This document shows, one piece after another, positions 3-62,614 of a stretch of 64,000 bases of DNA; the first letter of the stretch is position 1, and each line of letters starts with the position of its first letter. Below the pieces are notes generated by a model, which searched no databases, was not told where the DNA came from, and saw only the letters and a program-made list of their open reading frames with translations. The stretch comes from Balanoglossus misakiensis (Eukaryota > Animalia > Hemichordata): contig CM082589.2 in assembly GCA_040954595.2 (NCBI GenBank), forward strand, positions 6,321,186 through 6,385,185. The letters run 5' to 3'. The position numbers and the translations under genes are program-made.

Positions 3-359
3 TCCGCCACCACGGGCCCGTCCACCAACGAATTCGGCCCGGCGGCCACCCTGCTCAAGGCCAGGAAGAGAATCATACGCGTCCTCCTATTGGTCATGAT
101 GGCCTTCACTGTCTGCTGGACGCCCAATCAGTTTCTCTTCCTGGCGTTCAACTTCGGCGCCCCGATCGTCTACGGCAGCATATACTACAGCTTCTTCGTG
201 CTCCTGGCGTTCTCGAACTCCGTCATCAACCCCATAATCTACGCCTTCAAGTACAAACAGTTCAGGCGGGGCATTTGCCAGGTGTTCTGTCCTCGTTGGT
301 CGCGCCTCAACCAGGTGAACGATAGCTCCCTGGTTGCCACAACATCAGTGCCACCATAA
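3..359 (+). CDS. 3' end (ICL3-TM6-TM7-tail) of a rhodopsin-family GPCR, galanin/allatostatin-A-receptor-like; 5' part lies outside the window
   Basis: Frame open from base 3: ...LLKARKRIIRVLLLVMMAFTVCWTPNQ (TM6 CWxP)...LAFSNSVINPIIYAFKYKQFRRG (TM7 NPxxY and helix 8), stop at 357-359. The subfamily call is inferred from motif style. Confidence 0.92.
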   Translation, partial: SATTGPSTNEFGPAATLLKARKRIIRVLLLVMMAFTVCWTPNQFLFLAFNFGAPIVYGSIYYSFFVLLAFSNSVINPIIYAFKYKQFRRGICQVFCPRWSRLNQVNDSSLVATTSVPP

Positions 360-4812: not shown

Positions 4813-6599
4813 TCAAACTTCTTCCTTTGGTTTCTCCTCTTCCCCGTTGGAGACTTCGAAATAAGTTGGCGGCTTCTGTTCGTTATTTCCTTCAACCTTT
4901 TCCTCGATCAATCGCGCCTTGTCCGATGTCTTGATGTCGGGTGAGGGCGGATGACTCGCGGCTTTCTCGTCTTTGTCGCTTGCGGGCGTTTCCGGAGGCG
5001 CTTGTTCCTCCTCTTTCGTGGGGCTGGGCGTGGCCGCCGGTGACTTCTTCTTCTCCCCATTCACGCCGTTCGGATCGGGTTCGGCCATCGGGGCCCGGGT
5101 GTACCCTTTCTTGTCGTTAGAGGGCGACTTCTCCTTGTCGTCTCTCGACTTGATTTTCAGGACCACGGGGCCTTTGTTTCTTCGGATGGTGTACACTTGG
5201 TAAATGATGCAGCTTAACAGCATCACGGCCACCAGCACGCCGACGATGAGAATTGCAATTTCCCAGGGTTTCCAAATTTCTGAAAGGAAGAAAGAGGTAA
5301 TCGTGCAATATATATTACCCTTAAGTCCCAGATTTCGCAAAACAAATACATCAAGATTATAAGTTGCCAGGCAAAAAAGGCAAAGTTTGAAGTATATGCC
5401 TCTTGGAATTCGAACATGTTTACGTCAAGGATCACTTGAAGCCATGTGGATACGCAGAGAATCGTGAGGACATTAACGACGTCCGTGTGTGGCTTCCAGG
5501 GGGAAGATTACTATCACGACGCAATGTGCGCCAGCAGGTTGCTGCAATAAAACAATATCTTGACATATTCGCGACAGGATTCCTAAAAGATGACCGTTTT
5601 TATAATTCATTGCATTCTCAGCCTGTCTTTCATCGGAACACGTTTTCGCTCTAAAAAGTTCACACCGTTCCGGTATTGGTGATCGTTAATTGCGGGGAAA
5701 GGGGAGAAAATTGCTTTCCTTCATTAATTCGGATCTCGGAAGGAAATTCCAGGTGAGTGATCCACATTCAACGAACTTAAGGCCAAGCCACCGAGGGGTA
5801 ACCATAGCAACTGAAACATCATCGGGATGATTAAACTTACCACGGGGTAAATGAGCGCGCAAATCGTGACGGAGGCATATTGAAACAAACCACACGGACG
5901 CAAGGTCAGCGAACAGCATTTCAATGACATCTGGAAAAAGATCTTGAATTTTGCACATGCGCACAGTGTGTCTCCCATCTGCCATCTGTTAATAAGGCAC
6001 TTAGCTAAGTCATTGATAGGTGATGTGATTAGGGATGTCGTTTATAGATCGACGGCCACCGCTTTCGCGCGCAGATGTAATTGTCACCGTTCCTCAAGCT
6101 CTAGGACACTAATTACTAACGATTTCGCCATTCAAGACTGAACACGCTGTAAATGCCCGGATGTTTCAGTGAAGATTGTAGAAAACATAATCGACTTACG
6201 GTCACTTGGCCGTGTCGGCGGCTTCTCTACTGTTTCTTCTTCAACGGGTTGTTCGTTACTTAGCTTTCCAGTTCCCCTGACTTGATCTAGCCGCGGAAAA
6301 AAATAAACAATCAGGCGATTAAAATGGAGTCTGTGATGTTTAAAATAAAGCATGGAATTTACATGCGAAGCTACTCACTGCATTCGTGAATTGACCAATA
6401 AAACATGTTCCACCCCCCCCCCCTTTATTGAGAAAAAAATGCCCATTTCTATTCAATAAAATAATGAAAAAAAAATCAACCAAATATTCGGAGCAAATCA
6501 TTCGCTATAATCATTCTTACGATATTACTAACCTGCATGGACAATTATGAATAGAAGACAAATGTAACAAAAAAGCTGCCATGTTTGGAATCTCGCCAT
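4813..6599 (-). CDS. Gene A: uncharacterised single-pass type I membrane protein (about 206 aa) with a PPxY tail
   Basis: Exons 6599-6533 (MARFQTWQLFCYICLLFIIVHA, signal peptide, GT donor, phase 1), 6286-6200 (DQVRGTGKLSNEQPVEEETVEKPPTRPSD) and 5279-4813 (QIWKPWEIAILIVGVLVAVMLLSCIIYQVYTIRRNK...KPPTYFEV...KEEV*). All introns are GT-AG and phases match. AATAAA on the minus strand at 4796-4791. Confidence 0.82.
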
Positions 6600-21427: not shown

Positions 21428-22325
21428 TCAAATGTTAGATGGGTTCTCTCGGTTGCCGCTGATAAATGGCTCGATCTCAGCATTATTCACAACATCGGCA
21501 TAATCTGGAGGCGGTGCGTCCGAAGGTGGCGCGCCAGAGTAGGCCGTTTCCGCAGAAGCGATGGGGCCATTGAGCGGCGTGGCCGAGTCCTCGAGACCGT
21601 TGTCTGACAATTCGTCCTCGTGCTGCAGCTGTTTTGCCGCCAAGTGTGGTTGGACAGACAGCGGCGGCGGCAGGTCAACTTCGGTCGGGGTCACAGGGTA
21701 CGGCAACTTGGCGGCATTGATAACAATGGTGGGTTGCCCTTCCTTGGAAAAAGTCACGTCCGCAAAATCGCTCTGCGCCGCCTGGTCCTTGTAGACGCTG
21801 CCGTTGGCGCGAGGGTACATGTAGGCTGGCTTGGGCGCGGCTTCCGGCGCGCCCCCAGTCGACAGACGGGAACAGGAAGTGGTTTCCTCTTCGTCCTGTT
21901 CCGGTCCGCCGTGCTTCAGGCTGTGGTAGCCGGGCGTCGATGGGTACGAGTCTCTCCTCTCACTACAGTTTGTCGGTCTGTCCTGCAACTGTATGCTCTC
22001 CTCTCCTTCGCTGACGGCTTTGTACTCCTGTTGTTCTTGAGCTTTCTTCTTCTTAGTTTTGCAACACATGCAGAGGACGATCAGAATGCAACAGCCCACG
22101 CCACCAACGATCAGAGCAATCTCCCAGGGTTCCAAGTGAAGGCCTAAAAAAACATAACAGCAGCAGACAAGCAAATAAGAACATTCTCCATCAGAAAAAT
22201 GTTTCACTCGCTTGTTATATTCTGAAATTTGAAAGCTGTCAAGTGTGGCGAGTAGATTGTGCAAATGTCTTGCAAGAAAATAAAAATTGTGTCCACATAG
22301 GTTAACATGCCTCTCTGTCCCCCTC

Positions 22326-46238: not shown

Positions 46239-46855
46239 TCACAGTTCTTCTAGTTCCGCCGCAGGCGCCTTTTCCCTGTCACTTTTTGTCGTCTCATCTC
46301 GTTTGTAGCCACAACAGAATACCACGATGCATACTGGGATTATACAGATCAAAGCACACACGAGGATGCCGCCTAAGACCATCAGTATGATTGACCAGAC
46401 TGGCAAATCTTCTGAAAATTGCATAAAAAATATTCAGATTTAGGAATGCTGTATCATGCAATGTATCATTCACACGTACAAAATGCCTTCCATTGCATAT
46501 GTAGTTAGCGCCCCCCCCCCCCCCCTCTGGAGTAGGTGCGGTCTGCATTCACTTATAAAATATATGATTTTCATAACAGTATTTCTGCGGAGTTACAATG
46601 AAGCTTTTGATTGACGTCACGGGTACAGCGAAATGTCATTTTTAATGTATACACGTAATTCTGAGCTCAGTGCGCGATATCAGATGTGAAATAGAACTTT
46701 GTCACAAAAATGATTTGTTGCAAGGAAAATGAGATAAGGGTTTGCAGAGACTTGATTGTTTTTACTGGTAACCCATCGATATACTTACCAGCAGACACTA
46801 ACGGAAGATTGCATAAGACGAGGAAGAGAACATATGTGAGGAATTTATTCATCAT
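46239..46855 (-). CDS. Gene D: 79 aa membrane microprotein (signal peptide, TM, Cys-rich juxtamembrane tail); paralogue of gene C
   Basis: Exon 46855-46789 MMNKFLTYVLFLVLCNLPLVSA (donor gtaagt, phase 1) plus exon 46411-46239 EDLPVWSIILMVLGGILVCALICIIPVCIVVFCCGYKRDETTKSDREKAPAAELEEL* (acceptor attttcag). Confidence 0.82.
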
Positions 46856-48131: not shown

Positions 48132-59960
<11,829 letters not shown>

Positions 59961-60856
59961 TCTGAGATTACCAGGCCTGTCAGCGAAATGTCAGAAGTGT
60001 TCTTCGGAAAAGTAAAGTCCGACAAGGCGAAAGTATGTCCGCGACACTGCGATGCCTCTACTGAACTGCCTTGGGTATTCTGTGCTACACACAGGTCGGT
60101 CATCCAATGTCAAAGTTCACCCCGCTGCGCCAAGATACGCATCTAGAATTATGCATAAGCTAGTGAACTGCAAATCTACATGCGCAAACATCAACACAAT
60201 CTGACAAGCCACCACAACGTCGCAACGTTTACGTGTAACTGCGACTTGCGACCTTTGAACCTTCGCCACTGCTTAAATCGAGTTGACGGTATGCCTGGGC
60301 CTGGGTTAGTATTAACCGCAGAGACCATGGAAGCACGTGTAAGGCCAACGGTCACCCCGACGGTGCCCCTGGCCAATATTTCTACCTCTGGCGGCGCTGT
60401 GCTACACGAAAGGAGTCAGGCATGGGCAACGCAACGGTAAATCATGCTCTCATCATTGGCAATACATACGGTCACATTATTTGGATGAAATTGCATGTAT
60501 TCTCGACATGGTGCTATCTTCGAACTTGGAGCTCGTTTATCTACAGCAAAAACGTCAAATCACCTGGACGCACGCACCTGGTTACAGTGAAACTCGCTAT
60601 ATACTTCAAGTTGTTAGACCGGAATAGTTTTAATTTATATACAGTGAAACCAGTATATTAATGCATCGAAAATGTCTTTAATACTTGTTACCTATTTCGT
60701 CATACATTACCAAGACCGTTATTAGTACTCGGACTGAAAGATATTGTAGATATTAATGGTTTTTTTTTATTAATAAAAGTCAATCATTCTCTGCACCCCA
60801 AATATGACTTCTGTCGTATGTATCCGGGAACATCCGCGTTATTCTTATATATGAAG

Positions 60857-62614
60857 TCATTTTGCTGTGTCATAGATATTGTCGACAAAACCTTCATCTG
60901 TATTTGGTCTCTTCGTCTTCTTTGACTTATCAACTTGTGCGTACAGCTGGTCTGGGTCATCATCATCATCTTTCAAGCGTGAATCACTTCTTTCTGGTAC
61001 AGTGGGCAACTTCTCTGTGACAGCATCCGCCGCATGCGCATCTTTGTGCGCATACGATCCATCTGGTTCCATGTCACCATTGGCAATGTGTTCGTTTTCT
61101 GCTCTATCTTGGCCAGACCTCTTTGGCTTGTCTACCTGGGCATAGAGTATGTCTATCTCGGAGCGGTACTGGCCACTGTCTTGGTCCTGGGTTTTGGTCT
61201 CTGTGTTATCTTTGATTGTTTTCTTTGGCTTGTCTACCTGGGCGTAGAGATCATCAACACCAGAACTGTTCGGGTCGATCGACTGGCTCTGGTCCTCCGA
61301 TCGCGGGCTGGTATCTTCCTCGACTGCATGACCGGCATAGGCTGTGATGTCAGGTGAGCTGTCACCTGACTCTGACGCACCGGAAGGCACTGTAACGTCA
61401 GGATTTGGCGCGCGCGCTTCGTTGGTGTATGCCACAGCTTGAGTAGTTGTCTCTCTTTCTGTTGCCACTCTTGTTCTGCGCTCGGCAGGCGCCTCCACCA
61501 GGCGTACATGGGTGATGAGTGTTGGGTTAGGTGCTACAGGTTGGCGTTTCTTCGTCCTAAATCGACCGAAGAAATTCGGAATTAGGCCTACAATGTATGT
61601 CACGATTAACTGTAGCAGTCCTAGGTCATAGAGACTGTGATGTGTTTTGTACCAGTAGTGCATTGTTGAATTGCACGGTCAGAAGTTGCCATGTGTGTAA
61701 AATGATCAGGCGATTGTGAGGAGACTGAAAGGCAAATCAAATTATTGCACCCACCTTCGCCTTCGTCGACAAATTAATACCACTGCAATGACCATAAATA
61801 TTATCAACAATACAATGATGCAGACACCGGTGACGATGTGAACGGTTACATCTAAAACAATAGAAATTGACTACGTAAATATGATACGATACCAGTTGCT
61901 ATGGCAACACGGTCGAATTGATACAGACTACAGTGTATATGTTTGAGAGATCAGCCAATCAGCGGCTGATCGAAATCCTGGCAGCGGCCATTTTGTTTTA
62001 CAAATCGTTCTATAGAATTTCCCCAGACCCAGTGGAGCGCAGCGGAAGAAGCAGGGGGAGGGGGGTCTGGGTAACCGAGACTGGTGTGTCTTCGACTCAC
62101 CTTCGATTTTTCTTGGTCCAGATGAAGGCTGAATAGTCCTAACATGGGCAGTCGATGATATTGTACCGGTTTCTAAAGTGGTAAAAAAGTAAAAGCTCAA
62201 TATGATGCATTAAAATCTTTAAAGATTTTGTCTGGAAAAAATGGACCCCGGTGGTGAATATTGTCTTCAGATGGGACTGTGACAATGTCATCCTTACCTT
62301 CATATTGCAATACAAAGCCCAGATCATTCCTGTTTAACATGGATGAACTGTAAAACCGCCGCGGTGCCGAAGATCATAGCAATATGTCAAATAGAAAACA
62401 ACCACTGACAAATACAGAGCTCTCTGCTGGCGTGAACACCTGCGTGCATGGCGCTCCATTTTTTACTTCCTGGTGAGCTCGTGAACTGCCTGCCAAATTA
62501 TGATCGACGCCGCTGCACTTTCAAAGTTAACTACTTACCTTGGTGGCTCATTCCTACCAGGGTAAGCAAGAAATAAAGTCCAACCGGACAGCAAACGGCA
62601 AATCTGTGGTCCAT
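60857..62614 (-). CDS. Gene E: transmembrane-adaptor-like type I protein (about 314 aa) with three LYAQVDK tyrosine motifs
   Basis: Exons 62614-62539 (MDHRFAVCCPVGLYFLLTLVGMSHQ, donor gtaagt, phase 1), 62172-62101 (ETGTISSTAHVRTIQPSSGPRKIE), 61851-61755 (DVTVHIVTGVCIIVLLIIFMVIAVVLICRRRRR, TM plus stop-transfer) and 61556-60857 (disordered tail). Phases are consistent. AATAAA on the minus strand at 60771-60766. The last three exons are more certain than the first. Confidence 0.8.

What the first reader, a model, noticed from the sequence alone, without database searches (positions are those of the whole stretch)
60857..61851. Gene E tail carries three EPIYA/ITIM-like LYAQVDK repeats
Seen: DDLYAQVDKPKK, DILYAQVDKPKR and DQLYAQVDKSKK, with the first two nearly identical in DNA, indicating internal duplication. 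The tail also has YTN and a terminal DNIYD, eight Tyr in total in an acidic disordered region, behind a roughly 28 aa ectodomain and a Cys-RRRRR juxtamembrane segment. Known: acidic residues before Tyr favour Src-family phosphorylation, ILYAQV fits the ITIM consensus (I/V/L/S-x-Y-x-x-L/V), YxN is the Grb2 SH2 motif, and Helicobacter CagA EPIYAKVNKKK binds Csk. Inference: an invertebrate PAG1/Cbp-like scaffold recruiting Csk or SHP-type SH2 proteins, possibly in immune cells.
Basis: partly seen in the sequence, partly recalled or inferred. Interest (0 to 1): 0.7.

Follow-up and report, generated by a model that had tools for sequence, protein, structure and literature searches.

The report
Receptor that lost its outer head
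This gene, closest to acorn-worm genes, is a relative of scavenger-type surface receptors whose outer domains are gone except for a small fossil in an intron; what remains is predicted to be a bare membrane anchor with three tyrosine sites that likely recruit the Src brake Csk, unless it is a recently dead gene copy.

Summary
The three LYAQVDK motifs are real and beyond chance. The only full-tail relatives found are six Ptychodera flava proteins; the three long ones carry SRCR/WSC-CUB ectodomains, Kremen-like in the WSC-CUB part. Intron 1 holds the last 25 codons of that CUB domain, with a 9-codon gap and no usable in-frame acceptor. So this is a receptor that lost its head, not a demonstrated PAG1 relative. 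Sites 1 and 3 and an unnoticed PxxPxR motif are conserved; site 2 is a local duplicate. The ITIM fit (1 of 3 sites; 0 of 12 in relatives), the Grb2 YxN and the juxtamembrane Cys are not conserved. LYAQV is the VE-cadherin Csk-binding sequence, so Csk docking is the best guess, untested. No RNA or genome was available, and the loss looks recent, so a young pseudogene or deletion allele remains a strong rival.

The parts
62539..62614 (-). Exon 1 (predicted): 25-codon signal-peptide-like exon, phase-1 donor
   Evidence: ATG with purine at -3 and G at +4, donor AAG|gtaagt. P. flava P0030 also has 25 residues from MD to S-x-Q before its SRCR domain, but identity is only 6 of 25. No signal-peptide predictor was run.
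62298..62373 (-). Fossil of the last 25 codons of the family's CUB domain, inside predicted intron 1; 9-codon gap; intact phase-1 donor; no usable in-frame acceptor
   Evidence: Best of 642 six-frame chunks for 3 of 3 P. flava CUB queries; 1, 0 and 0 of 2000 shuffles reach the score; the HMM alone gives E 0.67 window-wide. 9 of 10 identity in the last block with P0030 and P0031. All 14 AG sites tested give a stop within 63 aa. A T-rich tract without AG ends at the homology boundary.
62101..62172 (-). Exon 2 (predicted): 24-codon Ser/Thr-rich stalk, phase 1-1
   Evidence: Canonical AG/GT, 8 of 24 residues Ser/Thr.
61755..61851 (-). Exon 3 (predicted): single transmembrane helix, Cys77 and Arg cluster
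   Evidence: Hydropathy peak 3.58; aligns with the TM of six P. flava proteins, none of which has the juxtamembrane Cys.
60857..61556 (-). Exon 4 (predicted): 232-aa disordered tail with 8 Tyr and stop codon
   Evidence: Open frame; homologous to P0001, E 9.3e-6; 28-34% identity over TM plus tail to six P. flava proteins.
61229..61249 (-). Site 1, LYAQVDK (ancestral position)
   Evidence: Y-[AS]-x-[VI] at this column in 6 of 6 relatives.
61127..61147 (-). Site 2, LYAQVDK: local duplicate of site 1; the only ITIM-consensus site
   Evidence: 27 of 30 nt identical to site 1, spacing 102 nt; absent from 6 of 6 relatives.
60989..61006 (-).
   Evidence: Present at the same place in 5 of 6 relatives.
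60926..60946 (-). Site 3, LYAQVDK followed by SKK (most conserved part of the tail)
   Evidence: YAQVDKSKK in 5 of 6 relatives, YTQVDKSKK in the sixth.
61421..61429 (-). YTN (YxN pattern), not conserved
   Evidence: F-I-N at this column in 6 of 6 relatives.
60869..60883 (-). Terminal DNIYD: the family's N-x-x-Y motif, one residue shorter
   Evidence: DNI[IV]YE in 5 of the 5 relatives that reach this point.
60766..60771 (-). AATAAA, candidate polyadenylation signal
   Evidence: 85 nt after the stop codon.

Best explanation
This gene is a member of an acorn-worm SRCR-WSC-CUB receptor family that has lost its folded ectodomain, and it likely still makes a 314-residue headless membrane protein whose tail would, once phosphorylated by Src-type kinases, recruit Csk and so damp Src signalling at the membrane. 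Shown: homology of TM and tail to the family, a CUB fossil between signal and stalk exons, an open four-exon frame, conservation of sites 1 and 3 and of PxxPxR, duplication of site 1. Inferred: a deletion removed SRCR, WSC and most of CUB; because the flanking exons are phase 1, the signal exon can splice straight to the stalk; the orphan CUB piece is skipped. Inferred from established knowledge: an SH3 protein (a Src-family kinase or Grb2/Crk-type adaptor) binds PxxPxR, the Y-A-Q-V tyrosines are phosphorylated, the Csk SH2 domain docks there and Csk phosphorylates the inhibitory tail of nearby Src kinases. Without a head the protein could not sense ligand, so it would act as a constitutive or partner-driven brake, like vertebrate transmembrane adaptors.
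For: Family: P0001 is the only hit of the tail among 563 candidates; five more P. flava proteins follow by profile; 3 of 3 long ones carry CUB and WSC, 2 of 3 also SRCR (two of the three WSC scores are under Pfam's cut-off); WSC-CUB matches Kremen1, E 2.7e-20. Fossil. Open frame with 6 of 6 canonical splice dinucleotides and AATAAA. One indel in the 72-99 nt fossil against no frameshift in 945 coding nt gives P 0.03-0.05 under neutral decay if the events are independent. Site 2 kept 9 of 9 residues of the site-1 core while the flanks diverged. Motif: Y685 of VE-cadherin lies in LYAQV (10.1101/2024.04.17.589974, passage) and binds Csk (PMC11550946, abstract); PAG's Csk site is YSSV (PMC3492796, passage); CagA A and B segments (IYAQV, IYAKV) bind Csk while C and D (IYATI) bind SHP2 (PMC2768901 and PMC3593179, passages). 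Atlas features of P0001: SCIMP 0.91, PAG 0.86, LIME1 0.85.
Against: No transcript was seen. The fossil's last block is almost undecayed (9 of 10 residues), so the loss is probably recent, and at 0.5-1% neutral divergence a dead copy keeps its frame 57-34% of the time. Phase symmetry means the frame survives the deletion automatically, so that is no sign of selection. Motif conservation may date from before the loss. The two indel events could be one rearrangement. The terminal N-x-x-Y has lost a residue. At least two P. flava models also look broken: they start at an out-of-frame ATG inside the CUB end (8 of 9 and 7 of 9 positions compatible), so the family appears to shed copies. SH2 choice cannot be read from sequence: amphioxus motifs DDYATV and HDYSEV bound SHIP1 and, less, SHP1/2 (PMC8211107, passages), and CagA B also binds p85. 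The Atlas top hit shares only 150 of 256 features, under the tool's 170 guide.
Confidence: 0.42

Rival explanations
1. A young pseudogene or deletion allele: one copy of a birth-and-death receptor family lost its ectodomain recently and has not yet gathered stops; the motifs are simply inherited from the working receptor.
For: Near-undecayed CUB block; open frame expected at low divergence (57% at 0.5%, 34% at 1%); phase-1 symmetry keeps the frame without selection; P0002 and P0003 look like broken copies or broken models; six paralogues in P. flava, two with consecutive accessions.
Against: The fossil carries a 27-nt gap and has no working acceptor while 945 coding nt and 6 splice dinucleotides are intact (P 0.03-0.05 if independent; frame survival falls to 0.4% at 5% divergence); AATAAA and a good start context remain.
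Confidence: 0.3
2. A working headless protein whose sites are ITIM-like and recruit SHP2 or SHIP rather than Csk.
For: Site 2 fits (I/L/V)xYxx(L/V) (PMC2194117, passage); several sites in a row suit tandem-SH2 phosphatases (established knowledge); an amphioxus receptor with acidic -2 residues recruited SHIP1 and SHP1/2.
Against: Sites 1 and 3 have Asp and Gln at -2; 0 of 12 sites in six relatives fit the consensus; the +1 to +5 pattern matches the Csk-binding CagA A/B segments, not the SHP2-binding C/D segments.
Confidence: 0.16
3. An assembly artefact: the real gene is a full SRCR-WSC-CUB receptor and the contig dropped several kilobases inside intron 1.
For: The family is multi-copy in P. 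flava, which invites mis-joins; no reads were available to check the join.
Against: A single mis-join would not also explain the separate 27-nt gap and the missing acceptor; no SRCR, WSC or other CUB piece scores anywhere else in the window (best E 0.7-2.1).
Confidence: 0.07
4. A true invertebrate orthologue of PAG1/Cbp.
For: Layout resembles transmembrane adaptors; PAG and LIME1 clusters appear among Atlas look-alikes of P0001 at 0.85-0.86.
Against: No PAG Pfam match at E up to 10; the tail belongs to a CUB-bearing receptor family; signal exon present; no CxxC; no YEEI/V sites.
Confidence: 0.03

Closest known systems
Ptychodera flava uncharacterised SRCR-WSC-CUB receptors (XP_070554902.1, XP_070555034.1, XP_070555392.1) and short models (XP_070554901.1, XP_070555333.1, XP_070554385.1)
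   Same: Homologous TM and tail (28-34%), sites 1 and 3, PxxPxR, terminal GFVDNI motif, end of the CUB domain, 25-residue leader before the first domain.
   Different: This copy has no SRCR, WSC or foldable CUB, a much shorter stalk, a third Tyr site, a juxtamembrane Cys, a shortened N-x-x-Y, and lacks the YE[LV]L tyrosine and one of the two terminal repeats.
Vertebrate transmembrane adaptors (PAG1/Cbp, LIME1, SCIMP, SIT1)
   Same: Short outside part, one TM, long tail with several Tyr motifs (PMC4861716, passages); Csk-type Y-[AS]-x-V site; proline-rich SH3 site; similar language-model features of a relative.
   Different: No sequence homology shown; one juxtamembrane Cys, not CxxC; about 25-30 outside residues behind a predicted signal peptide rather than a few; descent from a multidomain receptor is visible.
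Kremen1/2 (Kringle-WSC-CUB-TM; PMC5014086, abstract)
   Same: The parent family shares the WSC-CUB unit (E 2.7e-20 over residues 134-369 of P0030).
   Different: SRCR replaces Kringle in the parents; this gene keeps only a CUB fossil; no tail similarity was tested or seen.
Csk-docking sites of VE-cadherin (Y685) and Helicobacter CagA EPIYA-A/B
   Same: LYAQV identical to VE-cadherin; Y-A-[QK]-V plus downstream Lys run as in CagA A/B; motif multiplied by duplication in a disordered region.
   Different: No E-P-I before the Tyr; no homology outside the motif; convergence on a short motif.

Membership tests
Acorn-worm SRCR-WSC-CUB receptor family | Homologous TM and cytoplasmic tail | tested here: met
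   E 9.3e-6 and 3e-6 to P0001; 28-34% identity to six proteins.
Acorn-worm SRCR-WSC-CUB receptor family | Folded SRCR, WSC and CUB ectodomain | tested here: not met
   Only CUB profile positions 84-108 remain and cannot be spliced in frame from any of 14 AG sites. A descendant, not an intact member.
Transmembrane adaptor proteins (TRAP layout) | Short extracellular part, single TM, long tail with several Tyr motifs | tested here: met
   Four-exon model, 8 Tyr; definition from PMC4861716. Rests on predicted splicing.
Transmembrane adaptor proteins (TRAP layout) | Juxtamembrane palmitoylation motif (CxxC in LAT, PAG, LIME) | tested here: inconclusive
   One Cys at the TM end, no CxxC; absent in 6 of 6 relatives.
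Transmembrane adaptor proteins (TRAP layout) | Expressed, tyrosine-phosphorylated, binds SH2 proteins | not testable with these tools
   Needs transcripts and binding assays.
PAG1/Cbp orthologues | Sequence match to the PAG family (PF15347) | tested here: not met
   No PAG hit at E up to 10 for the tail or P0001.
PAG1/Cbp orthologues | YEEI/V Src-SH2 sites plus one YSSV Csk site, two palmitoylation Cys | tested here: not met
   None of the 8 Tyr is YEEI/V; three YAQV instead (PAG features).
ITIM receptors | (I/L/V/S)xYxx(L/V), conserved | tested here: not met
   1 of 3 sites here, 0 of 12 sites in relatives.
EPIYA motif proteins | E-P-I-Y-A pentapeptide | tested here: not met
   Residues before Y-A are DDL, DIL, DQL; only the downstream half resembles EPIYA-A/B.
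Csk SH2 ligands | pY-[AS]-x-V as in PAG (YSSV), VE-cadherin (YAQV), CagA A/B | tested here: met
   Pattern met at 3 of 3 sites (references). Pattern only; binding untested; no measured Csk consensus was found in the passages read.

The most novel reading that the evidence does not exclude
A transmembrane adaptor caught being born: exon loss stripped a Kremen-like scavenger receptor down to anchor plus tail, the stranded CUB exon was silenced at its splice acceptor, and a lineage-specific Cys and third Csk site make it a PAG-like Src brake by convergence. It would be a visible route by which adaptor-type proteins arise from receptors.
Probability: 0.3. Interest if true: 0.66.

Novelty: new variant of a known kind. 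Interest (0 to 1): 0.42.

Why it matters
Vertebrate transmembrane adaptors diverge so fast that their origins are hard to trace (own knowledge; searches listed no title on an adaptor arising from a receptor by ectodomain loss). Here the parent family and the scar are both visible, so the idea that adaptors can arise from receptors by exon loss becomes testable with RT-PCR, a second genome and peptide pull-downs. The work also flags an apparently unstudied family of SRCR-WSC-CUB receptors with Csk-type tails in acorn worms. The motif itself is ordinary: it matches known Csk sites and recurs, multiplied, in unrelated unnamed receptors. If the copy is dead, only the parent family remains of interest.

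Tried and rejected
No whole genome is held for this window, so paralogues with intact ectodomains, the proteome-wide motif count and the presence of Csk could not be checked. No RNA holder was listed; this is no evidence on expression. The metagenome scan matched 322 stretches, none a relative. The Atlas did not hold the window's tail or P0032. Pfam gave nothing above cut-off for the tail and nothing for the 63-codon intron frame read through its stop. A longer CUB remnant was sought with a frameshift-aware alignment and rejected: the 5' part of intron 1 scores 26-27 against shuffle means of about 28 (18 and 20 of 30 shuffles reach it), and the best score upstream of exon 1 was 33, with no shuffle control. 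My first impression that the 5' part resembled the CUB start was therefore wrong. The Grb2 YxN reading was rejected on conservation. The 27 unnamed ENA/JGI/NCBI hits (16, 3, 8) were left out of the family alignment because they match mainly through the repeated motif (3-44% query coverage) and the eight long ones have no SRCR, WSC or CUB. No structure or complex prediction was run: the tail is disordered, phosphotyrosine cannot be modelled and no Csk sequence was at hand. Literature: none of the 17 papers listed holds YAQVDK; searches listed no paper on a hemichordate SRCR-WSC-CUB family (listings only; PMC10855680 does not mention Ptychodera or Saccoglossus in its main text; its supplements were not read and may list such architectures).

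Full report
Observation. A four-exon model (62614-62539, 62172-62101, 61851-61755, 61556-60857) has canonical GT-AG ends, phases 1-1-2 and an open frame of 314 aa: signal-like leader, Ser/Thr stalk, one TM, Cys77 and five Arg, and a tail with 8 Tyr. AATAAA follows 85 nt after the stop. Three Y-[AST]-x-[VI] sites arise in 180 of 200000 shuffles of the tail. Sites 1 and 2 are 102 nt apart and share 27 of 30 core bases, but only 24 of the next 72; site 3 differs at most third positions. The splicing is predicted; no RNA was available.

Relatives. The tail found one protein among 563 candidates, an uncharacterised Ptychodera flava protein, also the best of 4 hits in the unindexed search. A two-sequence profile added two more of similar length and three longer ones (only the 7988 best candidates were scored). 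The long ones carry CUB and WSC, two also SRCR, and their WSC-CUB part matches Kremen1. SRCR proteins with WSC and CUB domains are common in sea urchin (PMC10855680, passages). The window is therefore likely from an acorn worm; earlier scan notes on the same genome say the same (unchecked notes).

The fossil. Searching the window with the long relatives showed a short match inside predicted intron 1: 62373-62299 reads as the last strands of the family's CUB domain. It is the best of 642 six-frame chunks for all three queries, and 1, 0 and 0 of 2000 shuffles of the intron reach its score; a profile alone gives only E 0.67 over the window, so the case rests on rank, position and the 9-of-10 block. 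It lies exactly between signal and stalk exons and ends in a strong phase-1 donor where the relatives pass from CUB to stalk. It lacks 9 codons, and nothing 5' of it resembles SRCR, WSC or CUB. All 14 AG sites tested upstream of its donor give a stop within 63 aa. At its 5' edge a T-rich tract, as rich as two of the three true acceptors (13 of 24; top 24 of 333 positions), ends without AG; this suggests a stranded exon with a dead acceptor, but it is an inference, since the P. flava exon structure could not be read. Even if that piece were spliced in, it would add 26 residues, not a folded domain.

Which motifs matter. In the alignment with all six relatives, site 1 and site 3 are conserved in 6 of 6, PxxPxR in 5 of 6, and site 2 is absent from all. 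The ITIM consensus (PMC2194117, passage) fits only site 2 here and 0 of 12 sites in the relatives. The YxN column is Phe in 6 of 6. The terminal DNIYD is the family's N-x-x-Y motif minus one residue. The juxtamembrane Cys is private to this copy.

Mechanism. Csk has no membrane anchor and is recruited and activated through its SH2 domain by scaffolds such as PAG (YSSV), LIME, SIT1 and VE-cadherin (PMC3492796, passages). VE-cadherin Y685 lies in LYAQV (10.1101/2024.04.17.589974, passage) and recruits Csk in a negative feedback loop (PMC11550946, abstract). CagA segments A and B (IYAKV, IYAQV) bind Csk, segments C and D (IYATI) bind SHP2 (PMC2768901 and PMC3593179, passages). The three sites fall in the first class. 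I infer that the parent receptors couple ligand binding to Csk recruitment and that this copy, if expressed, does so without a ligand-binding head, as a transmembrane adaptor in the sense of PMC4861716 (passages). A language-model look-up of P0001 returned SCIMP at 0.91 and PAG, LIME1 and GAPT clusters below 0.9; this reflects layout, not kinship, and Pfam finds no PAG match. Against Csk exclusivity, amphioxus motifs with acidic -2 residues bound SHIP1 and SHP1/2 (PMC8211107, passages).

Alive or dead. The fossil's best block is nearly undecayed, which points to a recent loss. In a simple neutral model (assumed indel rate 0.1 per substitution) the frame survives 57% of the time at 0.5% divergence, 34% at 1%, 11% at 2% and 0.4% at 5%. 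One indel in the fossil against none shifting 945 coding bases gives P 0.03-0.05, if that indel is independent of the large deletion. Phase symmetry keeps the frame for free. Two P. flava short models begin at an out-of-frame ATG within the CUB end, so broken copies or broken models occur in the family. I put function at a little better than even, and function with Csk as main partner at about 0.42.

Comparison and novelty. It works, by prediction, like PAG1, LIME1 or SCIMP, but fails membership of PAG1, ITIM receptors and EPIYA proteins. It is a truncated descendant of an unstudied Kremen-like receptor family. None of the 17 papers listed holds YAQVDK, and searches listed no title on this family or on an adaptor born by ectodomain loss (listings only; subscription journals are mostly missing). 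The motif alone is not special: most of the unnamed hits carry it, up to six times, some behind unrelated ectodomains, and the scan has noted similar tails in other animals. Verdict: observation confirmed, interpretation partly supported, new variant of a known kind, interest 0.42.

Noticed in passing
P0004-P0022, P0032-P0039 (unnamed database proteins): Proteins that match mainly through the motif carry up to six LYAQVDK copies in Lys-rich tails, often ending in YSVVNK plus PxxPxK; the eight long ones have a TM and an ectodomain with no SRCR, WSC, CUB or other folded-domain Pfam match. A multi-copy receptor family with an expanding Csk-type cassette; origin not determined.
   Followed up: partly
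P0002, P0003 (P. flava XP_070555333.1, XP_070554385.1): Their first ten residues are compatible with the end of the CUB domain read one base out of frame (8 of 9 and 7 of 9 positions), so these models are probably broken copies or mispredictions.
   Followed up: partly
window about 48500-59963, minus strand: ABCC-type ABC transporter gene (TMD0, ABC_membrane and ABC_tran matches) starts about 900 nt downstream of the studied gene on the same strand.
   Followed up: partly
window 21428-22150 and 4813-5290, minus strand: Two other single-pass TM-plus-tail exons, both beginning the TM with PWEIA, with Tyr or PPxY-like motifs in the tail; the first has a weak TMEM51 match, the second none. Possibly paralogues of each other.
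   Followed up: partly
window 46269-46376, minus strand: Another TM-like exon with juxtamembrane CC seen in the tblastn output.
   Followed up: no
window 3-359, plus strand: 3' end of a rhodopsin-type GPCR (7tm_1, E 1.1e-10).
   Followed up: no
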